Assembly (NCBI GenBank): GCA_944332705.1
Contig: CALVKM010000005.1
Coordinates: 3,618-67,617 of the forward strand
Length of the DNA: 64,000 nucleotides
Direction: 5' to 3'
Source: an uncultured Bacilli bacterium
GTDB taxonomy: Bacteria; Bacillota_I; Bacilli_A; RF39; UBA660
The notes beneath the pieces are model-generated. The model had not been told where the DNA came from, did no database searches, and saw only the letters and a list, made by a program, of their open reading frames with translations. A program made the translations under genes and the position numbers. Positions 8,255 through 46,819 of the stretch are shown here, one piece after another (positions within the stretch are counted from its first letter, which is position 1; each line of letters begins with the position of its first letter).

Positions 8255-8283
8255 TTGACATCCAAACGACTGTTTGGTATACT
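8255..8283 (+). promoter_or_regulatory. sigma-A type promoter with a palindrome in the spacer
   Basis: TTGACA (8255-8260), a 17-nt spacer, then TATACT (8278-8283). The spacer contains the perfect inverted repeat CCAAAC-gact-GTTTGG (8262-8277). Confidence 0.55.
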
Positions 8284-8307
8284 TGATTTACAAGGAGGAA
8301 ATTTGTT

Positions 8308-25660: not shown

Positions 25661-27422
25661 TAGGGAATTAAGGGATTTTTATTTAAAATTTTTTGAAAGT
25701 CATAACCATGCTATTATTCCGTCATCTTCAATTGTTCCTGAAAATGATCCAACAGTGTTATTTACAACTGCAGGAATGCATCCACTTGTTCCATACTTAC
25801 TTGGTGAACATCATCCCGCTGGTAAAAGATTATGCGACTGTCAAAAATGTATAAGAACTAGTGATATTGATGAAGTAGGGGATGCATCACACTTAACTTT
25901 TTTTGAAATGCTAGGTAACTGGTCTTTAGGGGATTATTTTAAGAGTGAAGCTATTGCTATGAGTTATGAATTTTTAACAAGTAAAGATTATTTAAATATT
26001 CCTAAAGATAAATTATATTTTACTTGCTTTGCTGGTGATGAAGATGCTCCAAGGGATGAAGAAAGTTATAATATATGGAGAAGTTTAGGTGTTGCTGAAG
26101 ATCATTTATTTTACTTACCTAAAGAAAATAATTTCTGGATTTTAGGTAGTGGTGTTGGTCCATGTGGTCCAGATACCGAAATGTTTTATGATACCGGCAA
26201 ACCTAAATGTAAAGAGGATTGTAGTCCCGCTTGTGATTGTGGTAAGTATTTAGAAATTTGGAATGATGTATTTATGGAATACTACCGTGATGAAAATGGT
26301 AACTTAACTAAACTTGCTCAACAAAATGTTGATACCGGTATGGGATTAGAGCGAACAATTACAGTACTTAATGGTTTAGAATCAGTATATGACTCTGATG
26401 TATTTGCTAATTTAAAAGCAAAACTAGAAGAATTATCTGGTAAAAATTACGAAGATAATAAAAAAAGTTTTCGTATTATCATGGATCATGTAAGAACTTC
26501 AACATTTATTTTAGGGGATGATTACGCTATTACACCATCGAATGTTGGAGCAGGTTATGTTTTAAGAAGACTAATAAGAAGAGCTATTAGACACTTAAGA
26601 AAGCTTGGTTTAATGGAAGATGCTTTAGTAAAACTTGCTGATGTAGTTATAAATGATTATAAAGATATCTATAATGAACTTGAACGCAATAAAAAATTTA
26701 TTCATCACGAATTAGAAAATGAAGGTATTAAATTTGGTAAAACCATTAAAGATGGTGAAAAATTATTTTATAAAGTTATCAAACATTTAGATGGTGATAC
26801 CATTAGTGGAGCTGATGCTTTTAAATTATTTGATACTTTTGGTTTCCCTTTAGAAATGACTGAAGAATTAGCCCACGAAAATAATCTCACAGTTGATGTT
26901 GATGGTTTTAATGAAGCATTTAAGGAGCATCAAGAAAAATCAAGAACTATTGATGCCGGATCATTTAAAGGTGGCCTTGCTGATAGCTCTTATGAATCAA
27001 CTAAATACCATACACTTGCTCATCTTATGCTTGCGTCTTTACAACAAATGTATGGACCTGATATTATTCAAAAGGGTTGTAATATTACAAGTGAACGAAT
27101 TCGTTTTGATTTTAATTTAGATCATAAGATGACTGATGAAGAAAAGTGCGAATTAACTAAAATAGTTAATGAAAAAATAAATGAAGGTATTCCTGTAACT
27201 ATGGAAGAAATACCTTATGAAGAAGCTAAAGCCAAGGGTGCTCATGGTACTTTTGAAGATAAATATGGTAGCATTGTTAAAGTATATTCTATTGGAGATT
27301 TCTCTAAAGAAATTTGTGGGGGACCACATGTAAGTAATACAAATGAACTTGGTACATTTAAAATAATCAAAGAAGAATCATCATCGGCAGGTGTCAGAAG
27401 AATTAAAGCAGTATTAGAATAA
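25644..27422 (+). CDS. alaS: alanine--tRNA ligase, compact form lacking the C-Ala domain
   Basis: N-terminus MKQLTSRELRDFYLKFFESHNHAIIPSSSIVPENDPTVLFTTAGM, editing-core motifs HTLAHL and CGGPHV, ends at GVRRIKAVLE. GAGGTGG RBS precedes ATG 25644. Confidence 0.88.
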   Translation: MKQLTSRELRDFYLKFFESHNHAIIPSSSIVPENDPTVLFTTAGMHPLVPYLLGEHHPAGKRLCDCQKCIRTSDIDEVGDASHLTFFEMLGNWSLGDYFKSEAIAMSYEFLTSKDYLNIPKDKLYFTCFAGDEDAPRDEESYNIWRSLGVAEDHLFYLPKENNFWILGSGVGPCGPDTEMFYDTGKPKCKEDCSPACDCGKYLEIWNDVFMEYYRDENGNLTKLAQQNVDTGMGLERTITVLNGLESVYDSDVFANLKAKLEELSGKNYEDNKKSFRIIMDHVRTSTFILGDDYAITPSNVGAGYVLRRLIRRAIRHLRKLGLMEDALVKLADVVINDYKDIYNELERNKKFIHHELENEGIKFGKTIKDGEKLFYKVIKHLDGDTISGADAFKLFDTFGFPLEMTEELAHENNLTVDVDGFNEAFKEHQEKSRTIDAGSFKGGLADSSYESTKYHTLAHLMLASLQQMYGPDIIQKGCNITSERIRFDFNLDHKMTDEEKCELTKIVNEKINEGIPVTMEEIPYEEAKAKGAHGTFEDKYGSIVKVYSIGDFSKEICGGPHVSNTNELGTFKIIKEESSSAGVRRIKAVLE

Positions 27423-27907
27423 TGAATTATTTAGGTAGTAAAAAAATTGTTACTAAACGTTTAGAATTAAGACCCCAGATGATGGATGAACAAAAATACT
27501 TGTGGGATTTATTGATGATTCCAGAGGTTAATAGATATTTTCTATCTGTTCCAAGAAAATTTAGAGAAAAAATCAAAGATTGGTCTATTCAAGAGGGTAT
27601 TTATCAAGAAAAGATGAAACATGCAAATGATTCTAATGTATTTGAATGGAGTATCTTTTTAAAAGATACCAATGAATGTATTGGTAGAATAGTATGTCAA
27701 GAAATTGATTCTAACTCTCCTGATATTAGAGATGTCGGTTGGTTAATTGATCCAATTCATCAAAATAAAGGTTATGTTACGGAGGCTGCCACATCTATGC
27801 TTGAATTTATGTTTAATGATTGTGATATTACTGCAATTCATACTGGAGCAGCTATCGAAAATCCTGCCTCATGGAAAGTTATGGAAAAATTAGGGTTTAT
27901 TAGATAA
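27422..27907 (+). CDS. GNAT N-acetyltransferase (RimJ/RimL-like), truncated by an in-frame TAA
   Basis: KRLELRP...GYVTEAATSMLEFMF...NPASWKVMEKLGF. The frame continues after TAA 27905-27907 for 31 more codons to TGA 28001-28003, with a GNAT-like tail. Confidence 0.7.
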   Translation: MNYLGSKKIVTKRLELRPQMMDEQKYLWDLLMIPEVNRYFLSVPRKFREKIKDWSIQEGIYQEKMKHANDSNVFEWSIFLKDTNECIGRIVCQEIDSNSPDIRDVGWLIDPIHQNKGYVTEAATSMLEFMFNDCDITAIHTGAAIENPASWKVMEKLGFIR

Positions 27908-28012
27908 GATGAAATAGTTTGGTATGATTATACATTTTTAGATGAACCAGTACAAGGTTATAAATATTATTTTACTAAAGAACAATTTTTAAATAGGATG
28001 TGATGTTTTTTA

Positions 28013-28387
28013 ATGGAAAGGGAAAATAATCTGAAAATTTTAACACGATACGAAATTGAAACTGCTTTAGCTAAATTGATTTTTTATTTGCTAGCATCGT
28101 CAAAATATGAACCATATAAAGAATATAAAAATAAGTTTGAAGAAATGTTAGAAATTGTAATGTTATGGGTTAAATATTATGTGGATAACGACAATTTACT
28201 TAATATGACAGATGATGAGGTAATAAGTATTCAAAAATTAATGGATGAAATACCAAATGATGCTTGGAATGGAGATTATTTTGAAGAAGTAGATATATGG
28301 TTAAGCACAGTTATATTTTATGGTAGTTGCCCAGTTAATCAAGAATATGATGAAAGTAAAATAATTAGAAAAGGAAAAGTAACTTAA
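28013..28387 (+). CDS. hypothetical acidic protein
   Basis: 124-aa ORF followed by a terminator. No family recognised. Confidence 0.45.
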   Translation: MERENNLKILTRYEIETALAKLIFYLLASSKYEPYKEYKNKFEEMLEIVMLWVKYYVDNDNLLNMTDDEVISIQKLMDEIPNDAWNGDYFEEVDIWLSTVIFYGSCPVNQEYDESKIIRKGKVT

Positions 28388-28407
28388 TGTTACCTTTTCT
28401 TTTTTTG
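28373..28407 (+). terminator. rho-independent terminator
   Basis: GGAAAAGTAAC / GTTACCTTTTC stem with one bulge, then T7. Confidence 0.65.
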
Positions 28408-28411
28408 AAAT

Positions 28412-28463
28412 AAAATTCCTGGAATCGTGAGAAATTGGCACTTCAAAATTCTTGGAATCGTGA
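28412..28463 (+). repeat. two 19-nt direct repeats upstream of rsgA (candidate regulator site)
   Basis: AAAATTCCTGGAATCGTGA at 28412-28430 and AAAATTCTTGGAATCGTGA at 28445-28463. They match at 18/19 nt and are 33 nt apart. Confidence 0.6.
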
Positions 28464-28524
28464 TTTTGTATTGTACTTTTAGCAAAATACATGATAAAAT
28501 ATTTCTTGAAAGGTATTTAGGTCT

Positions 28525-29589
28525 ATGGCTCACTATAATTCTTATGAAAGCTTTAAAACTAAAAAAAGTATTAAAAAGAAGGAACAAGCAAAAAATAAAT
28601 CTTTGGTAAAAACTAAAGATGATTTTGTAGTTTCTAAATCTTCAAATTATGGTATAGTTTTAGAAGTTAAATATAATGATATCTTTGTAATTTATGAAAA
28701 TGTTGTAGTTAAAGCAACTTTAAGAAAAGATTTAAATGAAATAGCTAATCAAGTTTTATTTGTGGGAGATAAAGTAGAACTTATTAAAGATGATGATAAA
28801 TATATAGTAAAACATTTAATTAAAAGAAATAGGGTATTATCTAGAACTAAAAAAGATAGTACTAAACTTGATGATATAGGGAAATCGGGGGTTATTGCCA
28901 CCAACATAGATATAGCAGTAATTGTAGTAAGTTGTAAGGAACCACCTTTACATCCTAAATTTATTGATAGATATTTAATGATTTTACAAAACTCTAATAT
29001 ACCAGCAATTATCTGTTTAAATAAATGTGATTTAAAAACTTTAGAAGAAGAGAAAATACTAGATATATATCGTAAGTTAAATATAATAGTTATTGAAACA
29101 TCTACTTACAAAATGCTAGGTATTGATGAATTAAAGAAATATTTAAAAGGGAAACAAGCTATATTTGTTGGTAATAGTGGAGTTGGTAAATCATCACTTA
29201 CTAATGCTTTATTAAGTGATGATTCTATTAAAACTGGTAATGTTAGTGATAAAAGTAAAAGAGGAAGACATACTACAACTTCATCTAAATATTACTTATG
29301 GGATAATAATTCATCAATAATTGATACTCCAGGAATAAGAAGTTTAGATGTATCAAATTTTAAGCCAATTGAAATTCAACAGTATTTTCCGGAATTTAAA
29401 AATAGTAATAAATGTAAATATAGTGATTGTTTGCATTTTCATGAACCAATTAATAGTTGTTTTATAAAACAAGAAGTTATTAATGGATATATAAATATAA
29501 ATAGGTATATTAGTTATTTAAGAATAATGAGTGATATATTAAATGAAGAATATATAGATATCTTAAATGAAATAAGTAAGGAGGATTAA
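28525..29589 (+). CDS. rsgA: ribosome small subunit-dependent GTPase A (RsgA/CpgA/YjeQ)
   Basis: Circularly permuted GTPase (NKCDL, then GNSGVGKSSLTNAL, DTPG) and a C-terminal zinc knuckle CKYSDCLHFHEPINC. Confidence 0.9.
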   Translation: MAHYNSYESFKTKKSIKKKEQAKNKSLVKTKDDFVVSKSSNYGIVLEVKYNDIFVIYENVVVKATLRKDLNEIANQVLFVGDKVELIKDDDKYIVKHLIKRNRVLSRTKKDSTKLDDIGKSGVIATNIDIAVIVVSCKEPPLHPKFIDRYLMILQNSNIPAIICLNKCDLKTLEEEKILDIYRKLNIIVIETSTYKMLGIDELKKYLKGKQAIFVGNSGVGKSSLTNALLSDDSIKTGNVSDKSKRGRHTTTSSKYYLWDNNSSIIDTPGIRSLDVSNFKPIEIQQYFPEFKNSNKCKYSDCLHFHEPINSCFIKQEVINGYININRYISYLRIMSDILNEEYIDILNEISKED

Positions 29590-29918
29590 TGGAATACTGG
29601 GATATTTATGATGAATTTAAAAATAAAACTGGTAAAGTCTTAAAAAGGGGAGATAAGCTAAATGATGATGAATATCATTTAGTTACTAATGCGTGGATTA
29701 AAAATAGTAAAGGAGAATTTCTAATTACTCAAAGGTCTAGTACTAAAGCTCATCCTTTAATGTGGGAATGTACTGGTGGTTCAGCAGTTTTAGGAGAAGA
29801 TACTTATATGGCAGCAATGTGGGCAAGTAGTGATAAAATAAGAATACTTTATGATAATAATATGTTTGAAGCTAATGCTTATTTTGAAGACATAGTTTTT
29901 GGTAGTAATAATGAATAG
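29589..29918 (+). CDS. Nudix-family remnant lacking the Nudix box (internal deletion)
   Basis: The N-terminus MEYWDIYDEFKNKTG...GGSAVLGEDTYMAAM matches Idi-like Nudix proteins. The sequence then jumps to a C-terminal-like WASSDKIRILYDNNMFE, and no REUXEEXGU is present. Confidence 0.5.
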   Translation: MEYWDIYDEFKNKTGKVLKRGDKLNDDEYHLVTNAWIKNSKGEFLITQRSSTKAHPLMWECTGGSAVLGEDTYMAAMWASSDKIRILYDNNMFEANAYFEDIVFGSNNE

Positions 29919-30456
29919 TGGTTTAGTTACTTTAAGAAGATTAAAAAACGATATTAAAGATTATGAACTACTGACTAAATGGTATCAGAAAGAAGAAATA
30001 TATACTCATTTTGAACAGAGAAAATTATCTTTGGATGAAATAAAGAAAAAATATTATCCAAGAACTTTGGATAATGCAAAAGTTCCTGTTTATATGATTG
30101 AATATCAAAATAAACCAGTAGGTATAATTCAATATCAATTAATTGATGATGATAATAAAAATTTATATGGAATAACAAATGACAATTGTTATGAAATAGA
30201 TATTTTTATCGGAGAGATATCATTACATAACCTTGGTATTGGTAAAACTGTTATTGATTTAATAAGTGATTATTTATTTAAAGAAAAGAATGCTAGCCTT
30301 TTAGTTATGTGTCCTTTAGAAGATAATATTAATGCTATTAAATGCTATAGTAAATGTGGTTTTAAAATAATAAGGGAATTTGAAACAGAAAATACAATTG
30401 GAATAATTAAAAAATATGTATTGATGATAAAAAAATTAAATAAAAAAGGAAGATAA
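29911..30456 (+). CDS. GNAT acetyltransferase resembling aminoglycoside 6'-N-acetyltransferase AAC(6')-Ie type
   Basis: LRRLKNDIKDYELLTKWY..., MIEYQNKPVGIIQYQ and YEIDIFIGE...GIGKTVIDLISDYLFKEKNASLLVMCPLEDNINAIKCYSKCGFKII parallel the AAC(6')-Ie domain as I recall it. Confidence 0.6.
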   Translation: MNSGLVTLRRLKNDIKDYELLTKWYQKEEIYTHFEQRKLSLDEIKKKYYPRTLDNAKVPVYMIEYQNKPVGIIQYQLIDDDNKNLYGITNDNCYEIDIFIGEISLHNLGIGKTVIDLISDYLFKEKNASLLVMCPLEDNINAIKCYSKCGFKIIREFETENTIGIIKKYVLMIKKLNKKGR

Positions 30457-30458
30457 TA

Positions 30459-30995
30459 ATGATTAAAGTAATTGCTTTTGATTTAGTAGGTGTCTTAATA
30501 ACCGAAAAAGATATAATTTTAAATGATACTGAAGAAAAGATAGAAAGATTATTCGGAGCTAATGAAAGTGATGAAGATTATATAAATAAAGCAAAACTTA
30601 TTACTAACGAAAATATTATAGATATTACTAAAAATATAATTAATAAATTATATGTTGTAAAAGATAGAGATATTTTTAGAAAAATTAAAGAAAAGTATCA
30701 AGTAAAAATAATTATAGCTACTAATCATGTATTCTTTATTAAAGATTACATTGTAAATAATTTGGATATTGAAAATATTGATGATATAATAATATCAGCA
30801 AAGATTAATAAAATAAAACCTAATAAAGATTTTTATGAGTACATATTAGATAAATATAATATAAAAAATAATGAATTATTATTTATTGATGATAATATAA
30901 AAAATATTAATGCCGCAGCAAGTATGAATATAAATACAATAAAAGTAAATAAAGATACAGATATATTATTAAGTATTAAAAAATATATGGAGTAA
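30459..30995 (+). CDS. HAD-superfamily hydrolase with atypical motif I
   Basis: Motif I reads FDLVGVL, with Val in place of the second Asp. Motif IV FIDDNIKNINAA is present. Confidence 0.65.
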   Translation: MIKVIAFDLVGVLITEKDIILNDTEEKIERLFGANESDEDYINKAKLITNENIIDITKNIINKLYVVKDRDIFRKIKEKYQVKIIIATNHVFFIKDYIVNNLDIENIDDIIISAKINKIKPNKDFYEYILDKYNIKNNELLFIDDNIKNINAAASMNINTIKVNKDTDILLSIKKYME

Positions 30996-31000
30996 TAGTT

Positions 31001-31537
31001 ATGAATAAATTATATATAATTAGACATGGTAAAACTGATTGGAACAATTTAAGACTTATGCAAGGAAGAGTAGATATTCCCCTAAATGAAGAAGGAAGAG
31101 ATGATGCTGTTAAACTTGCTTCAAGTATTAATTTGAGTGATATAGATATTTGTTTATCATCTCCTCTTAAGAGGGCTCGAGAAACAGCAGAAATAATTGT
31201 CCAAAATAAATTAAAAATTATTTATGATGATTTATTAATTGAAAGAAATTTTGGAGATTATGAAGGATGCGAAGTTAATTTTGATTTAATACAAAAACAG
31301 TGGGATTATAATTTAAATGATAAAAGTGGTAATATTGAAAGTATTAAAGAGTGTTTAAATAGAGCTAAATTTTTTTTAGATAAACTAAAAAAAGATTATC
31401 CTAATAAAATCATATTAATAATATCACATGGAAGTTTTATTAAAGCATTACATTTTAATATTATAGGATATGATGAGAATACAGACTTTTTATCTTTTAG
31501 ACCCGCAAATACAAGGATTTATGAATATGATTATTAG
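31001..31537 (+). CDS. histidine phosphatase family protein (phosphoglycerate mutase-like)
   Basis: IIRHGKTDWN catalytic RHG motif and a downstream ISHGSF. Confidence 0.85.
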   Translation: MNKLYIIRHGKTDWNNLRLMQGRVDIPLNEEGRDDAVKLASSINLSDIDICLSSPLKRARETAEIIVQNKLKIIYDDLLIERNFGDYEGCEVNFDLIQKQWDYNLNDKSGNIESIKECLNRAKFFLDKLKKDYPNKIILIISHGSFIKALHFNIIGYDENTDFLSFRPANTRIYEYDY

Positions 31538-31546
31538 AGGTGTAGT

Positions 31547-31861
31547 ATGAATAGTGCTAAATTTACAATGATTGATGAGAATTTTAAGTGTGTAGTCTGT
31601 GGCAAAATGGTAGAAAAATTAGGCTACAGTGCAAGAGATCATTGCCCATATTGTTTATGCTCTTTGCATGTAGATATTAATCCTGGAGATAGATTATGTG
31701 ATTGTTTGGGAGTGCTTGTTCCTATTGGAGTAGAAAAGGGTAGGAAAGACACTTTAAAAATAGTCTATAAATGTAATAAATGTGGAATGATTAAAAGAAA
31801 TGTTGCAACCAGAGATGATAACTTTGATAAAATATTAGAGATAATGAAAGGTGTAAAATGA
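31547..31861 (+). CDS. RNHCP domain protein (zinc-ribbon, unknown function)
   Basis: CVVCGK...RDHCPYCLCSLHVD...CDC...CNKCG matches the Cys/His pattern of the RNHCP domain. Confidence 0.65.
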   Translation: MNSAKFTMIDENFKCVVCGKMVEKLGYSARDHCPYCLCSLHVDINPGDRLCDCLGVLVPIGVEKGRKDTLKIVYKCNKCGMIKRNVATRDDNFDKILEIMKGVK

Positions 31862-32265
31862 ATGGAAATAGAATTATAGTTCATGGATTAATTAAAGTAG
31901 ATGAAAAATATTTAATTATTAAAAGGTCAGTTAATGAGACATCATATCCGGAATTTTGGGATATCCCCGGCGGACTTGCAGAATTAAAAGAATTACCCAA
32001 AGAGGCATTAATTAGAGAGATAAAAGAAGAAATAGGGTTAAAAGCCTTACCTATTAAAATAATTCATGAAGATAGTAATCTTGATGAAAACAAAGATATG
32101 ATTTTTATTAGACTCGTATACTTATGTAATTTAGAAGATGATATTAAAAATATTAAATTAGATTTAAATGAACATTCTGAATATAAATTAATTGATAGTT
32201 TAATGAGTTTAGAAAATGAAAATGTTTTACCATATTTATTAGATATATTAAAGGAGTTATTATGA
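31858..32265 (+). CDS. Nudix hydrolase
   Basis: Perfect Nudix box GLAELKELPKEALIREIKEEIGL. ATGA overlap with the upstream gene. Confidence 0.85.
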   Translation: MNGNRIIVHGLIKVDEKYLIIKRSVNETSYPEFWDIPGGLAELKELPKEALIREIKEEIGLKALPIKIIHEDSNLDENKDMIFIRLVYLCNLEDDIKNIKLDLNEHSEYKLIDSLMSLENENVLPYLLDILKELL

Positions 32266-32377
32266 GACAGCCACATCAAATATTAGCATTTCCCTATAAT
32301 AAAGATGATTAAGGTAGTAATAAAAATGCTTTATGGGAATTAAATTATAGATTGTTAAATAATAAAATGGAGTGAGT

Positions 32378-33376
32378 ATGATTGAAGAGAGTGTTTTAAC
32401 CAATGAATTAATAGCGGATATAATTAAAAAACAATATAATATAGATGTTATAAAAATAGAAAAAATAAATAAAGGTAGTGCTAATTTATATTCACTTAAT
32501 AATAATACTTATGTGTTAAAAGAATTTCAAACTAAATATAGTGAAGAAGATATAAAAAGAGAAGTATTAGTTATTAATCATTTAAAAAAAGATAATATTC
32601 CAACTTCAGAATATATTAAAACAATTGATAATAATTATTGCTTTAAATATAATGGTAAAGTAATAATCCTACAAAAATTTATTGAGAGATATACAATGAT
32701 GCCAAATACCGCAGATTATAATCAATTATTAGAATCGGCAACATATTTAGGTAAAATTGTGGCATCTTTAAAGACATTAAAAACAGATTTACCACTTAAA
32801 GATATAACTTGTTCTAAAGAAGAGATAGATAAAGGAATTTTAAAACATAAGAATTTATTAAATAAAACTAATAATGAAAATATAAAAAATGATATATTAG
32901 AAAAAATAAAAATGTTAGAAGAACTTAAGAACAAAATAAATTATAATGATATAAAAAATATGTCAATTATGAATACCCATGGTGATTATAGTGTTATGCA
33001 ATTTATTTATAAAGATAATAAAATAAATGCTATAATTGATTTTGTATCAGCTTGTAAAACTAAAATATCATGGGAAATTATAAGATCATATAGTTATATT
33101 GATTCTAAATCTAAAGAAGGTATTATTGATATAAATAATTTAATAAGTTATATAAAAGAGTTTAGTAAATATGTTAAATTAAATAAGTATGATATTAAAT
33201 ATATGCCATATTTATATTTAGTAAAATTATTAACTAGTACTTATGGTTATAAAGAATATATTAATGATAATACTAAAATAGATTTATTAGAATTTGCGAT
33301 ATTTAGAACAAAATTATGTAGATATTTATTTGATAATGCAAGTGATATTTCTATTAAGTTAATGGAGGCCTTATGA
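32378..33376 (+). CDS. aminoglycoside/choline-kinase-family phosphotransferase (APH-like)
   Basis: HGDYSVMQF catalytic loop and IIDF (DFG-equivalent). GGAG RBS precedes ATG 32378. Confidence 0.65.
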   Translation: MIEESVLTNELIADIIKKQYNIDVIKIEKINKGSANLYSLNNNTYVLKEFQTKYSEEDIKREVLVINHLKKDNIPTSEYIKTIDNNYCFKYNGKVIILQKFIERYTMMPNTADYNQLLESATYLGKIVASLKTLKTDLPLKDITCSKEEIDKGILKHKNLLNKTNNENIKNDILEKIKMLEELKNKINYNDIKNMSIMNTHGDYSVMQFIYKDNKINAIIDFVSACKTKISWEIIRSYSYIDSKSKEGIIDINNLISYIKEFSKYVKLNKYDIKYMPYLYLVKLLTSTYGYKEYINDNTKIDLLEFAIFRTKLCRYLFDNASDISIKLMEAL

Positions 33377-33852
33377 ATAAAGATATTGTAATAAATAATG
33401 ATGATTTTGTATTTAATTTTCGAGTTGCGTCAGTAATTAGAAATAAAGATAAAATATTAGTTCAAGTAAATAAAAAGGCTGGGCATTTAACACTACCGGG
33501 AGGTAGATGTGAAATAAATGAAGATACAATAAATACAAGTATTAGAGAATTTAGAGAGGAAACAGGTATAGATACTTTATTTGTTAAATCTTTAGGTATA
33601 ATTGAAAACTTTTTTGTGTCTGCATTTTATAATAAAAAGTTTCATGAAATCTTAATGGTTAATGAAATTAAATTTAAAGATAAAAGTAATTATTTATTAG
33701 ATGAAATAGTAAATATTGAAAATAAAAAACAAAATGATATAAAATTTATATGGAAGAGTATTGATGAATTAAAAGATTTAAATTTTAAACCTAAAGTATT
33801 ATTTAAGGTTATAGAATCTAAAGAATTTATTCATTTAATAAATAGGGATTAG
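33373..33852 (+). CDS. Nudix hydrolase
   Basis: Perfect Nudix box GRCEINEDTINTSIREFREETGI. Confidence 0.85.
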   Translation: MNKDIVINNDDFVFNFRVASVIRNKDKILVQVNKKAGHLTLPGGRCEINEDTINTSIREFREETGIDTLFVKSLGIIENFFVSAFYNKKFHEILMVNEIKFKDKSNYLLDEIVNIENKKQNDIKFIWKSIDELKDLNFKPKVLFKVIESKEFIHLINRD

Positions 33853-33865
33853 AAAGGATGGTATT

Positions 33866-34981
33866 ATGAATATAGTAAAACCAGATTATAATAGAAGTGT
33901 ACTTTCAATATCTTCATCAATTATGAAGTATTATAATGTTGATAGTAATTATAAAAGTTTAAAAGAATTAGATGATATATTAAATAAAGAATATCGAAAT
34001 ATTGTCTATTTAATTATTGATGGTATGGGATTTAATATAATGCGTTCTACTTTAAGTGATGATGCTTTTTTAAATAAACATACATTAACAAATGTTACAA
34101 CAGTATTGCCTTCATCAACTGTACCAGCAACAACAGCTATTCATTCTGGTTTATCACCACTAGAAAGTGGTTGGGTAGGTTGGATGCAATATATAAAAGA
34201 AAAAAATTGTATGATTGAAATGTATTCAGGAAGAGATTATTATACTAGAAAAGTAATTAAAGATATATCTTATAAAGAAGACTTAAAATATACTAGAATA
34301 TATGATTTAATATGTTCTAAAAATAGTGATATTAACTTCCACTTGCTTTTTCCGGCGTTTGCTCCGAATGGTTCTAAAACATTTGAAGAATTATGTGAAA
34401 AAATTGAGTATGCTTGCAATAATGAAGGTAAAAATTTAATATCGGCTTATTGGGATGAATTTGATACTACAATGCATCACTTTGGAGTTGGTAGTAAAGA
34501 AGCTACAGAAGTTTTAACAAAAATTAATAAAAATTTAGAAAAACTTGCTAAAGAATTAGATGACACTTTAATAATTATTACTGCAGATCATGGTCAAGTT
34601 AATATAAAAGAAGTATATTTAAATGATTATCCAGATATTGATGCTTGTTTAAAAATGCCACCATCTATAGAATTTAGATTTGTAACATTTTTTATTAAAG
34701 ATAATATGCATGAAGAATTTGTTAAATCTTTAGATAAACACTTTAAGGGTAAATATATTTTATATACTAAAGAAGAATTTTTAAATTGTGGTTTGCTTGG
34801 TATGGGAGTTAAACATAAAAGAATTGATGATTTCTTTGGTGATTATGTACTTATTAGTACATCAGATTTATCATTTAGTTATACTACTACTGGTAAGAAA
34901 GACAAACCTATAGTTGGTAATCATGGTGGTATGACAGAAGATGAAATGTTAGTGCCAATTATATGTATTGAATGTAAATAA
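33866..34981 (+). CDS. alkaline-phosphatase-superfamily protein (nucleotide pyrophosphatase/phosphodiesterase-like)
   Basis: LIIDGMGFN, LPSSTVPATTAIHSG, ADHGQ and GNHGG metal and nucleophile motifs. Confidence 0.65.
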   Translation: MNIVKPDYNRSVLSISSSIMKYYNVDSNYKSLKELDDILNKEYRNIVYLIIDGMGFNIMRSTLSDDAFLNKHTLTNVTTVLPSSTVPATTAIHSGLSPLESGWVGWMQYIKEKNCMIEMYSGRDYYTRKVIKDISYKEDLKYTRIYDLICSKNSDINFHLLFPAFAPNGSKTFEELCEKIEYACNNEGKNLISAYWDEFDTTMHHFGVGSKEATEVLTKINKNLEKLAKELDDTLIIITADHGQVNIKEVYLNDYPDIDACLKMPPSIEFRFVTFFIKDNMHEEFVKSLDKHFKGKYILYTKEEFLNCGLLGMGVKHKRIDDFFGDYVLISTSDLSFSYTTTGKKDKPIVGNHGGMTEDEMLVPIICIECK

Positions 34982-34982
34982 A

Positions 34983-35017
34983 AATATGAAAAACAACTTT
35001 GCTTTTTCATATTTTTT
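34983..35017 (+). terminator. rho-independent terminator ending the rsgA-led gene string
   Basis: AATATGAAAAA / TTTTTCATATT 11-bp stem followed by a T-run. Confidence 0.7.
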
Positions 35018-35029
35018 ATTGCAATTAAA

Positions 35030-35479
35030 ATGATTAAAGTTTATAATTTAGATATGAAAGAAAAATTGTTAGAAGTAAAACTATATGAGTTAGGATATTG
35101 TAGTGAGTCAGAATATACAAGAGTTGTTTGTGTTTGTAAGTATAAAGACAAATTTGTTTTTTGCTACAATAAAAAAAGAAATGGTTATGAAATACCTGGA
35201 GGACATATTGAAGAAAATGAATCTTGGCGAGATGCGGCAGTAAGAGAAATGTGTGAAGAAATTGGAGCAACCAAAGTAGTACTTACTCCAATATGTGTTT
35301 ATAAGATAAGTACTTTTGCATTGCTTGTCTCTTGTGAAGTATTAGAGATGGGTAATTTACCAACAGGTTATGAAACATCTAGTATTTTACTATCTGATGA
35401 TTTACCAGATAATCTAACATATCCTGATACTTATATAAAATTATTTAGAAGAGCAAAATCTTTTTTGGAGGATGAATGA
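35030..35479 (+). CDS. Nudix hydrolase
   Basis: Nudix box GHIEENESWRDAAVREMCEEIGA. Confidence 0.85.
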   Translation: MIKVYNLDMKEKLLEVKLYELGYCSESEYTRVVCVCKYKDKFVFCYNKKRNGYEIPGGHIEENESWRDAAVREMCEEIGATKVVLTPICVYKISTFALLVSCEVLEMGNLPTGYETSSILLSDDLPDNLTYPDTYIKLFRRAKSFLEDE

Positions 35480-36036
35480 AGCAAGTTACTATGGTTACTG
35501 GCAATATTGGTAAGTGGCAAGTTGCTAGTGAAATATTTAAAAAATACAATGTTGAATTATTACATGAAAAAATGGATACTTTTGAGATTCAATCGCATGA
35601 AGTTGAAGAAGTATCTAAATATTCGGCTTTTTATGCCGCGGAAAAACTGGAGAGGCCAGTAATAAAATCGGATGTTGGTTATTTTATCGAATCTCTAAAT
35701 GGATTTCCTGGTCCATTTTTAAGATATATCAATGATTATTTAACTAGTGAAGAAATATTAAAATTAATGGAAGATAAAGAAAATAGAACAATTCTTTTAA
35801 AAGAATGTTTAACATTTGCAACTCCAAATGGCGAATGTATTCAATTTGTAAGTATTGAAAAAGCCAGTATTTCTAAAATTTCTATGGGCAGTGGTACTAC
35901 TTTTGATAGAATAGTCATATTTGACGGGTATGATAAACCAAAATCTATGAATAGTGAAGAGGATAATATTAAACACTTTGAAAAACAATTAGATATATAT
36001 GATAAAATGGCCAAATATTTAGAAAGTAGGGAATGA
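35476..36036 (+). CDS. non-canonical purine NTP pyrophosphatase (Ham1/RdgB/ITPase family)
   Basis: N-terminal VTGNIGKWQVASEIF (TGN.GK..E signature), 186 aa. Confidence 0.7.
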   Translation: MKQVTMVTGNIGKWQVASEIFKKYNVELLHEKMDTFEIQSHEVEEVSKYSAFYAAEKLERPVIKSDVGYFIESLNGFPGPFLRYINDYLTSEEILKLMEDKENRTILLKECLTFATPNGECIQFVSIEKASISKISMGSGTTFDRIVIFDGYDKPKSMNSEEDNIKHFEKQLDIYDKMAKYLESRE

Positions 36037-36587
36037 TAGTGATAGATAAAATTCAAAAATATTTTATCAAAGAATCTTTAGAATATGAAAATAAAAGTGG
36101 TTATAACTATTGGGATAATCATGTAAAATATGTTGTTGATATAGCAGAGAATTTAGCAAGTAGAGTAAATGCCGATAAAGAAATAGTAGTAATTAGTGCT
36201 ATATTACATGATATAGCTAAAGTTTTAGAAAAGGATATTGATAAACCTCATAACCTAGTTGGAGCCAAGATAGCAGAAGAATTATTATTAAAAGAGGGTT
36301 ATGATAAAGAAAAAATAGAGAAAGTAAAACTTTGTATTATACATCATAGTGGTTCTTTAGATACGGAAATATCTAAAGAAGAATGGTGTGTTAGAAATGC
36401 TGATATTATTTCAATGTTTAATAATATTACCATATTTTATTATCTAGCTATCAATGAATATAAATTAAATTATAATGAAGCTAGAAAATGGGTAAAAGAT
36501 ATGATTTCATCTAAATATGAAAATTTAGATGAAGATCTAAAGAGAGAATATGATAATTTATTTGATACAATTTATAATGCTATTTAA
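36033..36587 (+). CDS. HD-domain phosphohydrolase
   Basis: ILHDIAK and IIHHSG metal-binding His/Asp motifs. Confidence 0.75.
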   Translation: MIVIDKIQKYFIKESLEYENKSGYNYWDNHVKYVVDIAENLASRVNADKEIVVISAILHDIAKVLEKDIDKPHNLVGAKIAEELLLKEGYDKEKIEKVKLCIIHHSGSLDTEISKEEWCVRNADIISMFNNITIFYYLAINEYKLNYNEARKWVKDMISSKYENLDEDLKREYDNLFDTIYNAI

Positions 36588-36641
36588 TTTTTAATAAAGA
36601 TATGGTATTATATTTTAAATGAGAAAGTTAGGTGATTATCA

Positions 36642-37157
36642 ATGAAAGAAATTTTATATAATTATGATAATTTGAGTAAAGAGCAAATAGATGAGACAAT
36701 TATTAGGACTAAAGCTGTTATTGTTAATAATAAAGATATTATTTTAGGATATTCACATAAAACTTTTCAATTTCCAGGAGGACATTTAGAAGATGGAGAA
36801 ACATTAGAGGAATGTTTAATAAGAGAAATAAAAGAAGAAACGGGAATAAATGCTATTAAAGAAAATTGTACTTTATTTGAAAAAATAATTTATTTTAACA
36901 AAAATTATCACAATTCAGGAAAAAATCGTTGTAATGAAATATATTATTTTATTGTTAAAACAAATGAAAATTTTGATAATAATAAATTAAAATTAGATGA
37001 AAAAGAAAAAAAAGGTAATTTTAAAGTAATAGCTATTCCTTTGAAAAATATTGAAGAAGTATTAATTAAAAGTATTCCCGATAATCCAATAAATGAGATT
37101 ATTGTAGAAGAAATGCTTGATATAATAAAAGAATATAAAAAAATAACAAGTAAATAA
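36642..37157 (+). CDS. Nudix hydrolase
   Basis: Nudix box GHLEDGETLEECLIREIKEETGI. Confidence 0.85.
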   Translation: MKEILYNYDNLSKEQIDETIIRTKAVIVNNKDIILGYSHKTFQFPGGHLEDGETLEECLIREIKEETGINAIKENCTLFEKIIYFNKNYHNSGKNRCNEIYYFIVKTNENFDNNKLKLDEKEKKGNFKVIAIPLKNIEEVLIKSIPDNPINEIIVEEMLDIIKEYKKITSK

Positions 37158-37195
37158 ATGTTGATTAATGTTATAGTAGATTATATTATGTATAT

Positions 37196-37370
37196 TATAG
37201 AGAGTTTATGGTTGGTGAAAATAAACATATAATATAATTGAATTACCCATTATGAGTTTATAGGTGGTTACTTTATAGCCAAATAAAGTGTATGAATTTT
37301 TATTCATAAAATAAGGTGGTACCGCGGATTAATTCGTCCTTATAGGAAGAATTAACTGCGGTTTTTATTT
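37196..37370 (+). promoter_or_regulatory. T-box leader (Tyr) with terminator
   Basis: Promoter TTGATT-17-TATTAT at 37161-37189. Stem I start TAGAGAGTTTATGGTTGGTGAAA. Canonical T-box AAGGTGGTACCGCGG at 37313-37327. Terminator CGCGGATTAATTC...GAATTAACTGCG plus T5. UAC (37244) and UAU-A (37259) are candidate specifiers. Confidence 0.85.
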
Positions 37371-37390
37371 TAAAGGAGGAGAGAATTTTA

Positions 37391-38587
37391 ATGAAAAGAG
37401 AAGAAAAAATTGATTTGGTTTTGAGGAGAACAGTTGAGGTTTATAATAAAGATACTTTATTAGAAAAATTAAACAGTGGTAGAAAGTTGGTAGTAAAATT
37501 AGGAGCGGATCCCTCAAGACCTGATTTGCATTTAGGACATACTGTCCCCTTAAGGGCTTTAAAAATATTACAAGAATTAGGTCATGAAATAGTCTTTGTT
37601 ATTGGAGATTTTACTGCTATGATAGGGGACCCATCAGGAAGGTCTAAAACAAGACCGGCATTATCTTTTGAAGAAACTAAAAAAAATGGTGAAACTTATT
37701 TTAAACAAGTCTCTAAAATATTAGACCCATCAAAAATAAGAATTGTTTATAATTCTGAATGGTTAGGCAAGATGACATTTGAAGATGTGGTTAAATTATG
37801 TGGAAAATATACAGTGGCCAGAATTCTTGAACGAGACGATTTTAGTACAAGATTTAAAAATAATATTCCTATTGGAATACATGAATTTTTATATCCTTTA
37901 ATGCAAGGTTATGATAGTGTTGCTTTACATGCTGATATTGAAATTGGTGGAACTGATCAAACCTTTAATTTATTAGTAGGAAGAGAATTACAAAAAGATT
38001 ATGGCCAAGAACCTCAAGATGTAATGTGTTTTCCTTTACTTGTAGGTATAGATGGTAAAGAAAAAATGAGCAAATCATTAGGTAATTATATTGGTATAGA
38101 TGAATCTCCAGAAATAATGTTTGAAAAATCTATGAGAATACCTGATGATGTATTGTTTGATTATTTTAGATTAACAACTGATATGGATTTAGATAAAGTA
38201 AAAGTTGAAATGGAAAAAGATATAGTTGAAGCTCATAAAATTTATGCTAGAGAAATTATTAAAATGTATCATGGCGAAGAATTTATTGAATATGCTGAAG
38301 AAAGATATGCAACTGTTGCTAAAGGTGGCGTACCAGAAAACATTGATGTTTATGAACTTGATAAGACTTCTATAGATAATGGAATTCTAATAACAGATTT
38401 ATTAGTTAAATCAGGTATTGTTCCATCAAAATCTGAAGGCAAGAGAATGATTGAACAAAATGGAATAAGCATAAATGGTATTAAAGAAACTAATTCTTCT
38501 AAAATGATTACTATTAACGATTTTGTAGATAATGAAATAATTATTCAGAAGGGTAAAAAAAGTTTTAAGAAAGTAGTATTAGTTTAA
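37391..38587 (+). CDS. tyrS: tyrosine--tRNA ligase
   Basis: PDLHLGH (HIGH) and KMSKS motifs and a C-terminal S4 domain, 398 aa. Confidence 0.93.
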   Translation: MKREEKIDLVLRRTVEVYNKDTLLEKLNSGRKLVVKLGADPSRPDLHLGHTVPLRALKILQELGHEIVFVIGDFTAMIGDPSGRSKTRPALSFEETKKNGETYFKQVSKILDPSKIRIVYNSEWLGKMTFEDVVKLCGKYTVARILERDDFSTRFKNNIPIGIHEFLYPLMQGYDSVALHADIEIGGTDQTFNLLVGRELQKDYGQEPQDVMCFPLLVGIDGKEKMSKSLGNYIGIDESPEIMFEKSMRIPDDVLFDYFRLTTDMDLDKVKVEMEKDIVEAHKIYAREIIKMYHGEEFIEYAEERYATVAKGGVPENIDVYELDKTSIDNGILITDLLVKSGIVPSKSEGKRMIEQNGISINGIKETNSSKMITINDFVDNEIIIQKGKKSFKKVVLV

Positions 38588-38593
38588 TTAAAG

Positions 38594-38624
38594 AAATAGC
38601 CAGATTCTATCTTGGCTATTTTTA
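38594..38624 (+). terminator. rho-independent terminator of tyrS
   Basis: AAATAGCCA...TGGCTATTT hairpin then T5. Confidence 0.7.
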
Positions 38625-38715: not shown

Positions 38716-39174
38716 AGGAAAGGATTAAATAAGAGAATATCAAGCCGAGCAATTATTTTTAAAGATAACAAAGTTGTATTAATTTATCGTAAGAGGGATT
38801 ATCAATAATACTATGTTTTTCCAGGTGGCAAAGTAGAAGATGGCGAAACAAACGAGGAATGTGTAATTCGTGAATGTAAAGAAGAACTCGGTATAGATAT
38901 TAAACCAATAAAGTATATTTATGAAGTGAAAGGTCCAGATTTTATTCAACATTTCTTTTTATGTGAGTGGGTATCGGGAGTATTAGGTACTGGAGATAAA
39001 GAAGAATATGATGTTAATCGCCAAGGGGGAGTACAAATTCCTATGCTTATAGATACAAAGTCATTAAAAAAACTTAATATTGTTTCTCCAGAAATAATAA
39101 CCGAGTTATGTATTGATATAAATAAGTTTGGTTTAAATTTAGATGATAATGTTAAAACAATTATTGAAAAATAA
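38716..39174 (+). pseudogene. Nudix hydrolase pseudogene (no start codon, in-frame TAA)
   Basis: The frame reads GKGLNKRISSRAIIFKDNKVVLIYRKRDYQ-TAA(38806-38808)-YYVFPGGKVEDGETNEECVIRECKEELGI. There is no ATG/GTG/TTG between RBS AAAGGAAAGGA and the stop. ORF 38926..39174 is its tail. Confidence 0.75.
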
Positions 39175-45055: not shown

Positions 45056-45109
45056 TACTTGTTATTTTGGCTGATTGTGTTAAAATAAAGAAGAAGTATG
45101 GTGATATAA

Positions 45110-45582: not shown

Positions 45583-45650
45583 AACTATATTAATGTGAAA
45601 GATGATTGTGTGTTATAATATTATGTAATTAATTCGGAGGAGGTAGAAAA

Positions 45651-46241: not shown

Positions 46242-46292
46242 TTAAGACGAAATATTTCATTTTGTTGTGATATAATATTTTCAAGGAGAAAA

Positions 46293-46814: not shown

Positions 46815-46819
46815 TACAT

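What the first reader, a model, noticed from the sequence alone, without database searches (positions are those of the whole stretch)
28525..37157. rsgA heads a co-directional string of 14 mostly nucleotide/metabolite house-cleaning genes, four of them intact Nudix hydrolases
Seen in sequence: from rsgA to 34981 the genes are separated by at most 13 nt or overlap, except for one 112-nt gap that holds a gene relic. Two further tight groups follow (35030-36587 and 36642-37157). The content is four Nudix genes with perfect GX5EX7REUXEEXGU boxes (31858, 33373, 35030, 36642), one Nudix with the box deleted (29589), an ITPase/Ham1 homolog, an HD hydrolase, a HAD, a histidine phosphatase, an AlkP/NPP-like enzyme, an RNHCP zinc-ribbon protein, a GNAT and an APH-like kinase. 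A further Nudix pseudogene and GNAT lie just beyond tyrS. Established knowledge: Nudix, ITPase, HD and HAD enzymes sanitise damaged or non-canonical nucleotides and metabolites. B. subtilis CpgA (RsgA) has been reported to moonlight as a metabolite-proofreading phosphatase. Inference: this is an unusually dense damage-control or detoxification locus. It may be a coordinated system and not a random accumulation, and it appears to evolve fast through duplication and decay.
Basis: partly seen in the sequence, partly recalled or inferred. Interest (0 to 1): 0.7.

Follow-up and report, generated by a model that had tools for sequence, protein, structure and literature searches.

The report
Strain-variable Nudix-rich housecleaning gene array
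The dense run of small nucleotide- and metabolite-cleaning enzyme genes is real, but comparison with sister strains shows it is a fast-changing accessory patch of an uncultured gut bacterium, in which single genes (including rsgA itself) come and go, and not a fixed, coordinated system.

Summary
All 14 ORFs and their families are confirmed, and the junctions are tight. Four Nudix genes keep intact catalytic boxes, one has lost its box, and a further Nudix pseudogene lies beyond tyrS. Nudix density is far above background: 5 in 8.6 kb against about 1 per 83 kb in 1.8 Mb of related DNA.

The string is not a conserved unit. None of the 13 downstream genes follows rsgA in 66 related species. Strains of the same species (98.7% identical flank, identical PMK protein) show at least 7 arrangements between alaS and tyrS. 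rsgA is intact in some strains, reduced to a 36-codon stub in many, and cleanly deleted in others.

A conserved promoter-like region, RNHCP and a loose backbone (NudixB-NPP, NudixC-Ham1-HD) persist; everything else is optional. The Nudix paralogs are anciently diverged, not local duplicates. Sequence predicts at least three transcription units, with a terminator and promoter between NPP and NudixC. Persisting genes are under purifying selection (dN/dS 0.04-0.58).

Best reading: a hotspot that collects independently acting house-cleaning and detoxification enzymes, changing by gene-sized indels and decay. No defined defence system, integron or mobile element was found.

The parts
27422..27907 (+). 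GNAT0 (Acetyltransf_3). It overlaps the alaS stop and is truncated by a premature stop; the in-frame tail continues to about 28010. Part of the variable region.
   Evidence: Pfam; sequence; intact 194-aa version in L183; absent in L002, L070 and L071
28013..28387 (+). Small ORF with a weak DUF6323 match, present only in window-type strains
28373..28399 (+). Terminator-like hairpin followed by a T-run, upstream of the array head
   Evidence: the equivalent hairpin directly follows alaS in L175 and L179-L181
28416..28463 (+). Two copies of TTCYTGGAATCGTGA (which contains the palindrome TTCCTGGAA). Conserved at the head of the array in every variant and found nowhere else in the window. Candidate operator.
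28471..28500 (+). Promoter-like site, TTGTAC-18-TAAAAT with an extended -10 TG. Retained in all variants, whether the first gene is rsgA, the rsgA stub, Nudix167 or the AAA ATPase.
   Evidence: prediction only
28525..29589 (+). rsgA (ribosome small-subunit biogenesis GTPase), intact. The G4, G1 and G3 motifs and the C-terminal Zn finger are present. Optional within the species.
   Evidence: (TIGR00157 199.6 bits vs cut-off 100); stub or deletion alleles
29589..29918 (+). Nudix relic, an in-frame deletion of about 174 nt that removes the Nudix box
29899..30456 (+). GNAT1, AAC(6')-Ie-like but far below the family cut-off (the gene caller starts it at 29911)
30459..30995 (+). HAD-IA hydrolase lacking the second Asp of motif I (FDLVGV)
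31001..31537 (+). Histidine phosphatase (branch 1) with RHG and SHG present; missing in L181
31547..31861 (+). RNHCP zinc-ribbon protein. The most persistent gene of the locus (every variant that spans the position; frameshifted in L002); dN/dS 0.04-0.13.
31858..32265 (+). NudixA, canonical box
32372..33376 (+). APH-family kinase-like protein, divergent (HGDxxxxQ instead of N). Together with NudixA it is an insertion relative to L178-L181.
33373..33852 (+). NudixB (first U position is F); backbone gene; dN/dS about 0.3
33866..34981 (+). Alkaline-phosphatase-superfamily NPP-like enzyme; backbone gene; dN/dS about 0.18
34980..35016 (+). Terminator-like hairpin (-12.5 kcal/mol, z = -4.0) followed by a T-run
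   Evidence: (I18)
35019..35047 (+). Promoter-like site TTGCAA-17-TATAAT, which is TTGACA-17-TATAAT in L180. It lies 6 nt before the ATG at 35054 that other gene calls use for NudixC.
35030..36587 (+). NudixC-Ham1-HD trio with 4-nt overlaps. It is inherited together in the window, L158, L168, L180 and L181, but is not conserved outside the genus.
36642..37157 (+). NudixD, canonical box. Its family recurs near rsgA in other genera. In L168 it is replaced by 6.9 kb of other genes, and it is absent in variant B.
37152..38623 (+). tyrS unit: own promoter-like site (37161-37189), T-box leader, tyrS (37391-38587) and terminator (38592-38623). Core gene, 98-100% conserved across strains.
38731..39174 (+). 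Nudix pseudogene (ATG>AAG and GAA>TAA); intact at 147 aa in L164 and L168
39203..39970 (.). GNAT2 (+) and an XRE-type HTH (-); the conserved downstream boundary module of the variable region

Best explanation
The string is the window strain's version of a hypervariable accessory locus. It lies between the core genes alaS and tyrS (extending to GNAT2-HTH) in an uncultured gut member of the class Bacilli; the closest named relative is Candidatus Onthocola.

The locus collects small enzymes that most likely act independently on nucleotides, phosphoesters and small molecules. These are diverse Nudix hydrolases, an ITPase-like Ham1, an HD hydrolase, HAD, a histidine phosphatase, an NPP-like enzyme, GNATs and an APH-like kinase. 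Their likely role is general house-cleaning and detoxification.

Its content changes by gene-sized deletions, insertions and replacements whose ends fall at gene boundaries, and by point inactivation. As a result, strains of one species carry different subsets.

Expression is predicted from a few promoters, not from one:
1. A conserved head promoter/operator region downstream of alaS drives whichever gene comes first (rsgA, its stub, or Nudix167) and probably reads through to NPP.
2. NudixC-Ham1-HD has its own promoter, which follows a terminator.
3. tyrS has its own promoter and T-box.

rsgA is a dispensable passenger at the first position. It is not the organiser of a system.

Shown here: the gene content, the strain variability, the decay, the purifying selection on the persisting genes, and the lack of conservation of the string. 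Inferred: the enzymatic roles (superfamily level only), the promoters and terminators, and the independence of the enzymes.
For: - Gene families.
- Not conserved: in 66 species with RsgA 52-69% identical, none of the 13 downstream genes follows rsgA. RNHCP neighbourhoods in 80 other loci lack these families. The Ham1 orthologues at 67-72% identity sit in different arrays.
- Within-species mosaic: strains with an identical PMK protein, and up to 98.7% identical flanks, show at least 7 arrangements.
- rsgA is intact in 3 variants, a 36-codon stub in 7, and cleanly deleted (last 22 nt left) in 2.
- The head motif and promoter are conserved in all variants and occur only at that site.
- A terminator-like hairpin after NPP is as stable as the tyrS terminator. 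The promoter after it is conserved, and consensus in L180, where reverse-strand genes intervene.
- Decay: the Nudix box deletion, the two-lesion Nudix pseudogene and the truncated GNAT0.
- The Nudix paralogs are anciently diverged and belong to at least 6-8 families.
- dN/dS is below 1 for all persisting genes, close to core values for RNHCP and Ham1, and 2-4 times higher for NudixB and NudixC.
- Slightly lower GC than the flanks, 0.242 vs 0.273.
- No integrase, no attC-sized spacers and no defined defence system.
Against: - A loose backbone (RNHCP-NudixB-NPP and NudixC-Ham1-HD) and the head promoter/operator persist across most variants. All persisting genes are under purifying selection. Some functional coupling within sub-modules therefore cannot be excluded.
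- A Nudix gene directly follows rsgA in about 7 of 66 related species, representing about 4 clades. NudixD-family genes lie within 10 kb of rsgA in 6 more. This hints at an old, weak rsgA-Nudix association.
- A Nudix-Ham1 fusion protein exists elsewhere (P0223).
- Nudix enrichment this strong is not expected from a purely random gene dump.
- All the data come from metagenome assemblies. No transcript or biochemical data exist.
Confidence: 0.7

Rival explanations
1. One reading: a coordinated damage-control operon. rsgA, as a CpgA-like proofreading phosphatase, and 13 sanitising enzymes would be co-transcribed from the rsgA promoter and act as one system.
For: - Tight spacing and overlaps.
- No canonical terminator between 28525 and 34981.
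- The conserved head promoter/operator.
- CpgA moonlighting is real in B. subtilis (PMC6449344).
- A Nudix gene lies next to rsgA in several related genera.
Against: - rsgA is deleted in most variants while the downstream genes remain.
- Every other gene is individually optional.
- The string is absent from 66 related species.
- A terminator and promoter lie between NPP and NudixC, and reverse-strand genes sit there in L179-L181.
- NudixD is replaced wholesale in L168.
- Pseudogenes lie inside the string.
Confidence: 0.08
2. A defence or immunity hotspot. The variable slot between core genes would hold nucleotide-directed effectors (Nudix, HD, ITPase, NPP/PglZ-like) that deplete or clean nucleotide pools or signals during phage attack or toxin exposure. 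RNHCP and the operator would act as the constant sensor/regulator part.
For: - Hotspot behaviour between conserved flanks, with strain-specific cargo.
- Sister strains carry an AAA_14/DUF4143 ATPase at this site that matches PADLOC candidate PDC-S01 at 2e-115.
- NudixA-D match the Nudix candidate PDC-S07.
- UvrD, a Polbeta nucleotidyltransferase, an XRE HTH, a nearby WYL regulator and IS200/IS605 elements occur in or near variants.
Against: - No defined system is detected.
- The PDC-S07 match is no better than the generic Pfam NUDIX match (53.7 vs 49.9 bits).
- PDC-S01 and PDC-S07 are abundant candidates, and neither paper consulted reports a functional test of them.
- The NPP match to PglZ is marginal.
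- The HD protein is only 184 aa with a generic HD/HDIG-domain match.
- Much of the cargo (HAD, histidine phosphatase, GNAT, aminoacyl-tRNA synthetase (aaRS) paralogs, transporters) is metabolic or resistance-like.
Confidence: 0.1
3. An antibiotic or antimetabolite resistance-type island. The locus would collect drug-modifying enzymes and target paralogs, with the Nudix, Ham1 and HD enzymes clearing toxic nucleotide analogues.
For: - GNAT1 is most similar to AAC(6')-Ie-type models, and an APH-family kinase is present.
- Variants carry CAT, further APH and GNAT genes, a second TyrRS (424 aa), a TrpRS-like protein and a class-I LysRS-like protein.
Against: - All resistance-family scores are far below the curated cut-offs, for example 77 vs 340 bits for AAC(6')-Ie and 22 vs 205 for APH(3').
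- The APH-like protein lacks the conserved Asn.
- No mobile resistance element context was found.
Confidence: 0.1
4. An assembly artefact: the string, or the short variants, are chimeras produced by metagenome assemblers joining across repeats.
For: GNAT2-HTH may be duplicated in some genomes: in L070 it precedes RelA, and in L164 it follows tyrS. The shortest form, RNHCP-GNAT2 (L157, L071), could therefore be a collapse across that repeat.
Against: - The window arrangement is reproduced by independent samples (L153, L158, L183).
- The rsgA stub junction is identical in 7 independent assemblies, and the clean deletion in 2.
- The junctions lie in unique sequence.
Confidence: 0.02

Closest known systems
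House-cleaning enzymes: Nudix hydrolases (MutT, NudI, RppH/YtkD), ITPase (RdgB/Ham1), HD-domain and HAD nucleotidases
   Same: The same superfamilies, with catalytic motifs present. The Nudix box is intact in four genes, and the Ham1 and HD motifs are present. The plausible role in removing non-canonical nucleotides is the same (general knowledge of these families).
   Different: No protein reaches any equivalog cut-off, and the closest solved structures match only at E = 1e-6 to 1e-8, so no substrate can be assigned. As far as I know, the characterised members are scattered through genomes and not packed in an array.
B. subtilis cpgA (rsgA) and its metabolite-proofreading role (PMC6449344)
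   Same: The window gene is a bona fide RsgA (TIGR00157 above cut-off, G motifs, Zn finger).
   Different: By my recollection, B. subtilis cpgA sits in the prpC-prkC-cpgA context. Here the neighbourhood is unrelated and variable, and the gene is deleted in most sister strains. No evidence ties it functionally to the downstream genes.
Hotspots of genome plasticity between core genes, for example the core defence hotspots of Pseudomonas aeruginosa (PMC10250203, seen but not read)
   Same: A fixed chromosomal slot flanked by conserved genes, with different cargo in closely related strains and IS elements nearby.
   Different: The cargo is mainly small hydrolases and transferases, not recognised defence systems. 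Turnover is gene by gene within a co-directional, tightly packed array, not by exchange of whole islands. No integrase or tRNA target was found.
Integron gene-cassette arrays
   Same: A co-directional run of small, promoter-poor genes behind a common head promoter, with cassette-like presence/absence.
   Different: No IntI integrase and no attC sites. Most spacers are 13 nt or less, or the genes overlap, so there is no room for recombination sites. The junctions differ from case to case.
Nudix gene expansions in Deinococcus and the Bacillus cereus group (from memory, not tested here)
   Same: Many diverged Nudix paralogs in one genome.
   Different: To my knowledge those paralogs are dispersed. 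Here at least 6 Nudix-derived genes lie within 10.5 kb, and the pan-locus holds at least 8 Nudix families.

Membership tests
RsgA / CpgA (TIGR00157) | Score above the curated equivalog cut-off; circularly permuted G4-G1-G3 motifs; C-terminal Cys/His zinc finger | tested here: met
   199.6 bits vs cut-off 100. NKCD, GNSGVGKS, DTPG and CKYSDCLHFHEPINSC are present.
Nudix hydrolase superfamily (PF00293) | Nudix box GX5EX7REUXEEXGU with the catalytic Glu residues | tested here: met
   Genes at 31858, 33373, 35030 and 36642: Pfam scores of 37.8-52.8 bits vs cut-off 21.1, and the catalytic residues are intact. The U positions are non-canonical in 33373 and 35030.
Nudix hydrolase superfamily (PF00293): gene at 29589 | Presence of the Nudix box | tested here: not met
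   No box; 16.4 bits is below the 21.1 cut-off. The intact 167-aa orthologue in L002 shows the box was removed by an in-frame deletion.
MutT / NudI / RppH (YtkD) equivalogs | Score above the NCBIfam equivalog cut-off | tested here: not met
   Best scores are 38 vs 95 (NudI), 55 vs 154 (YtkD) and 41 vs 98 (MutT).
RdgB/Ham1 non-canonical purine NTP pyrophosphatase | Pfam Ham1p_like above cut-off; NCBIfam equivalog cut-off | tested here: inconclusive
   Pfam gives 60.5 vs 22.5, which is met. The equivalogs give 126.8 vs 203 and 84 vs 145, which are not met. It is a member of the superfamily; its exact function is open.
AAC(6') aminoglycoside acetyltransferase | Score above the curated cut-off of the resistance model | tested here: not met
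   77.5 vs 340 bits.
HAD phosphatase | Motif I, DxD (nucleophile plus general acid/base Asp) | tested here: not met
   The N-terminus reads FDLVGV, so the second Asp is absent. The Pfam HAD fold is met.
Conserved operon or functional gene cluster | Gene order or co-occurrence conserved across related genomes | tested here: not met
   The string follows rsgA in 0 of 66 related species. There are at least 7 arrangements within the species. The NudixC-Ham1-HD trio is absent around the two Ham1 orthologues examined in other lineages.
Single transcription unit from the rsgA promoter | No internal terminators or promoters; demonstrated co-transcription | tested here: inconclusive
   Sequence predicts a terminator (34980-35016) and a promoter (35019-47) inside the string. 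No RNA data are available.
Integron cassette array | IntI integrase, attI, and attC sites between cassettes | tested here: not met
   No integrase domain in the ORFs scanned with Pfam across the window, spacers mostly 13 nt or less, and no shared inverted repeats at the junctions.
Known anti-phage defence systems (PADLOC-DB v2) | Specific match to the components of a defined system | tested here: not met
   Only generic Nudix matches to PDC-S07, HD matches to Cas3-HD and a marginal PglZ match were found. The ATPase in sister strains matches the unvalidated candidate PDC-S01.
T-box leader (RF00230) for tyrS | Score above the Rfam gathering threshold, located upstream of an aaRS gene | tested here: met
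   98.8 vs 93 bits at 37152-37344.

The most novel reading that the evidence does not exclude
The slot between alaS and tyrS could be a dedicated, regulated 'nucleotide-hygiene' hotspot. It would have a conserved operator/promoter and the uncharacterised zinc-ribbon protein RNHCP as its constant parts. A diversifying repertoire of at least 8 Nudix families plus ITPase, HD and NPP enzymes would be its exchangeable effectors. These would be selected by strain-specific exposure to phage-modified or signalling nucleotides, or to nucleotide-analogue toxins. It would thus be a pan-immune-like system built from house-cleaning enzymes.
Probability: 0.1. Interest if true: 0.7.

Novelty: new member of a known kind. 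Interest (0 to 1): 0.35.

Why it matters
The finding shows that a tempting 'super-operon' of damage-control genes is really a gene-by-gene variable accessory patch. This guards against over-reading gene adjacency in compact genomes with a strong strand bias.

Three by-products are useful:
1. rsgA, a broadly conserved ribosome-assembly GTPase, is a natural presence/absence polymorphism within one gut species. It was lost at least twice, which offers natural knock-outs.
2. RNHCP, a domain with no literature, is the most constrained and most persistent gene of the locus.
3. The pan-locus is an unusually rich source of diverged Nudix enzymes for substrate screening.

Tried and rejected
- Integron or cassette-site idea: I looked for repeats at the junctions. 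I found only a 12-nt GATGATTTTGTA shared by the rsgA stub end and the NudixB 5' end. There are no attC-like sites and no integrase. Rejected.
- Local duplication of the Nudix genes: rejected by all-vs-all comparison.
- RNHCP as an anchor of a conserved cluster: 80 metagenome loci show no linkage.
- NudixC-Ham1-HD as a conserved trio outside the genus: not found in the two lineages checked. A third look-up failed.
- Defined defence system: PADLOC gives only generic or candidate matches.
- Substrate assignment through NCBIfam and PDB sequence matches: nothing specific.
- The 'gene relic' in the 106/112-nt gap: blastx finds nothing, and the gap RNA has no unusual structure.
- Literature on RNHCP: none. 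Literature on Nudix clusters: nothing comparable found.
- I could not test whether rsgA-less strains carry another rsgA elsewhere. The genome scan returned only the stubs for the two MAGs concerned, and MAGs are incomplete.

Full report
**1. What is there.**
The window comes from a low-GC (about 27%) uncultured gut member of the class Bacilli that carries sporulation genes. The exact sequence lies on a gut-metagenome scaffold. The nearest genomes are MAGs labelled 'uncultured Bacilli/Tenericutes', 'Mycoplasma sp. CAG:956' and Candidatus Onthocola.
These are rsgA (28525-29589), a box-less Nudix (29589-29918), GNAT, HAD, a histidine phosphatase, RNHCP, Nudix, an APH-like kinase, Nudix, an NPP-like enzyme, Nudix, Ham1, HD and Nudix. 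A T-box, tyrS, a Nudix pseudogene and another GNAT follow.
- The junctions are -1, -20, 2, 5, 9, -4, 106, -4, 13, 48, -4, -4 and 54 nt.
- The catalytic residues of the Nudix box are intact in all four genes. The hydrophobic 'U' positions are canonical in only two of them.
- Only RsgA, AlaRS and TyrRS reach curated equivalog thresholds. Every other protein can be placed only at superfamily level, and similarity to solved structures is weak.
- Two proteins have atypical motifs. The HAD lacks the second Asp of motif I, and the APH-like protein has Gln in place of the conserved Asn.

**2. Is it more than chance?**
- Running in the same direction is not informative, because nearly the whole window (24-60788) is on the + strand.
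- Tight spacing is only marginally greater than in the rest of the window, 10 of 13 junctions against 17 of 39 (p = 0.055).
- Nudix density is genuinely exceptional. Home-made profiles run over 1929 ORFs in 1.81 Mb of fetched DNA find 26 Nudix ORFs. Five are in the string and none elsewhere in the window.
- The other window ORFs scanned are ordinary core genes or lack Pfam matches: SpoIVA, HU, rpoB and rpoC, EngB, Der, a P-type ATPase, transketolase and RecA. One further small HD protein lies at 56241.

**3. Conservation test.**
- I anchored on RsgA and fetched 70 loci from species-representative genomes. In the 66 species whose RsgA is 52-69% identical, none of the 13 downstream genes follows rsgA.
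- The one recurrent feature is a single Nudix gene. It lies directly after rsgA in about 7 loci representing about 4 clades. NudixD-family genes lie within 10 kb in 6 others.
- RNHCP neighbourhoods in 80 metagenome loci contain none of these families.
- Ham1 orthologues at 67-72% identity sit in other co-directional runs of small enzymes, including a Nudix-GNAT fusion, GNATs, a dNK-like kinase and Peptidase_S51. They are not next to an HD protein or a NudixC-like gene.

**4. Strain-level mosaic.**
Look-ups of exact proteins (RNHCP, NudixD, GNAT2, PMK) and of near-identical TyrRS variants recovered many independent assemblies of the same species group.
- Between alaS and the downstream histidine kinase they show at least seven arrangements.
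- A loose backbone recurs. It consists of the head promoter region, then rsgA (or its stub, or nothing), then optionally Nudix167, then optionally GNAT1-HAD-HisPhos. RNHCP follows, then optionally NudixA-APH, then NudixB, then two further Nudix genes in L181, then NPP.
- After NPP, L179-L181 carry two reverse-strand genes. NudixC-Ham1-HD follows. The next slot holds NudixD, or a 6.9-kb transporter/PRTase/UvrD segment (L168), or a RelA-headed block. Other strains (L164-type) carry a RelA/APH/TrpRS-like/CAT/second-TyrRS block upstream of tyrS. The backbone ends with tyrS, Nudix147 and GNAT2-HTH.
- L178 has the rsgA stub and is 98.7% identical to the window over 9.7 kb of flank, so this is variation within a species.
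- rsgA has three alleles: intact (window, L183, L002), the first 105 nt only (seven assemblies), and deleted except for the last 22 nt (L175, L181). The remnants prove loss, on at least two occasions.
- The window arrangement itself is reproduced by L153 (100% identity) and L158 (98.9%).

**5. Decay and selection.**
- The box-less Nudix is an in-frame deletion of about 174 nt from a 167-aa gene that is intact in L002, L175 and L183.
- The Nudix after tyrS carries ATG>AAG and GAA>TAA relative to the intact 147-aa copies, and L158 shares both lesions.
- GNAT0 ends at a premature stop, while L183 has the full 194 aa.
- RNHCP is frameshifted in L002.
- Genes that persist are under purifying selection. 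dN/dS is 0.04-0.14 for flanking core genes, 0.04-0.13 for RNHCP, 0.09-0.12 for Ham1, about 0.18 for NPP, 0.14-0.35 for HD and 0.23-0.58 for NudixB and NudixC.
- The Nudix paralogs share only box-level similarity and cluster into separate families. The array therefore grew by accretion, not by recent duplication.

**6. Transcription architecture (prediction only).**
- After alaS (or, in the window, after DUF6323) comes a terminator-like hairpin. One or two copies of TTCYTGGAATCGTGA follow, then a promoter-like site with an extended -10 (28471-28500). This block is conserved in all variants and is unique to this site.
- Between NPP and NudixC lie a hairpin followed by a T-run (-12.5 kcal/mol, z = -4.0, comparable to the tyrS terminator) and TTGCAA-17-TATAAT. 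In L180 the latter is TTGACA-17-TATAAT, directly after two reverse-strand genes.
- tyrS has its own promoter-like site inside the block that is conserved regardless of the upstream cargo.
- The 14 genes are therefore probably at least three units: rsgA to NPP, NudixC-Ham1-HD, and NudixD.

**7. Alternatives.**
- PADLOC finds no defined defence system. The AAA_14/DUF4143 ATPase that occupies the head of the locus in sister strains matches PDC-S01 (2e-115), and the Nudix genes match PDC-S07 no better than they match generic NUDIX. Both are abundant candidates, and neither paper I consulted reports a functional test of them.
- Resistance-type models (AAC(6'), APH(3')) score far below their cut-offs.
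- There is no integrase, no attC-like repeat, and no room for one.
- A Nudix-Ham1 fusion (P0223) gives weak support for pairwise coupling. In arrays with 4-nt overlaps, however, a fusion can arise simply by loss of a stop codon.

**8. Verdict.**
The interpretation as one coordinated, rsgA-headed system is not supported. The locus is best described as a strain-variable accessory hotspot that accumulates diverse, individually selected house-cleaning and detoxification enzymes behind a conserved head promoter. It changes by gene-sized indels and pseudogenisation.

This is a new example of a known kind of thing, a region of genome plasticity. Its points of interest are the within-species loss of rsgA, the constrained but uncharacterised RNHCP gene, and the unusual Nudix diversity. 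Interest is moderate to low (0.35). A defence-like 'nucleotide hygiene' reading remains possible but is unsupported (about 0.1).

Noticed in passing
window 28525-29589; L178 9847-9957, L179 2598-2708, L070 10001-10111, L175 ~12022-12047: rsgA is a presence/absence polymorphism within one species-level group. It is intact in some strains, a 36-codon stub in many, and a clean deletion leaving the last 22 nt in others. That means at least two independent losses of a broadly conserved ribosome-biogenesis GTPase. In the two species-representative MAGs with the stub, the genome scan found no other rsgA, but MAGs are incomplete.
   Followed up: partly
window 28416-28430 and 28449-28463: A repeated 15-mer, TTCYTGGAATCGTGA, with an internal palindrome TTCCTGGAA. 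It occurs only at the head of the variable array in every strain (one or two copies). It is a candidate operator for an unknown regulator.
   Followed up: partly
window 31547-31861: RNHCP is a zinc-ribbon domain with no literature. It is the most persistent gene of the hypervariable locus and as constrained as the core genes (dN/dS 0.04-0.13). In other organisms it has unrelated neighbours.
   Followed up: partly
window 27422-28010: The GNAT directly after alaS has a premature stop at 27905-27907, and the rest of the reading frame is still recognisable downstream. L183 has the intact 194-aa version.
   Followed up: partly
window 45583-51103: A second strain-variable segment, absent from L164, L168 and L172. 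It holds a WYL-domain regulator (45651-46241), a 173-aa ORF, a 779-aa ORF with no Pfam match and a 651-aa PfkB-like protein. WYL regulators often accompany defence systems, but no PADLOC system was detected.
   Followed up: partly
window ~45069-45073 and 8209-8320; L164 18667-20048: Relatives carry an IS605-family TnpB (OrfB) insertion at the position corresponding to window ~45070. A 112-nt sequence 88% identical to one end of that insertion lies at window 8209-8320.
   Followed up: no
L164 1-9741 (also L165-L167, L169-L173): In strains with 99% identical TyrRS, the region upstream of tyrS holds a RelA/SpoT homologue, APH, a 553-aa unknown, a TrpRS-like 333-aa protein, CAT, a HAD/5'-nucleotidase, YgjV, a GNAT and a second TyrRS (424 aa, 49% identical). 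This looks like a resistance or biosynthesis-type cassette.
   Followed up: no
L002 4687-6042; L070 8556-9911; L071 5618-6973; L182 7987-9342: A 451-aa AAA_14/DUF4143 ATPase sits between alaS and the array head in sister strains. It is flanked by a short duplication of the promoter region (window 28488-28511 equivalent) and matches PADLOC candidate PDC-S01 at E = 2e-115.
   Followed up: partly
window 25629-27422: AlaRS is a short form (597 aa) lacking the C-terminal domain of the canonical ~870-aa enzyme (length from memory). It passes the dedicated NCBIfam model NF002436 (902 bits vs cut-off 529).
   Followed up: no
P0223; L186 4569-5495 and 6819-8033: Gene fusions among the same families occur in related organisms: Nudix-Ham1, Nudix-GNAT and Peptidase_S51-GNAT. 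They may reflect functional coupling, or simply loss of a stop codon in tightly packed arrays.
   Followed up: no
window 56241-56729: Another small HD-domain protein (162 aa) lies just upstream of transketolase, outside the string.
   Followed up: no
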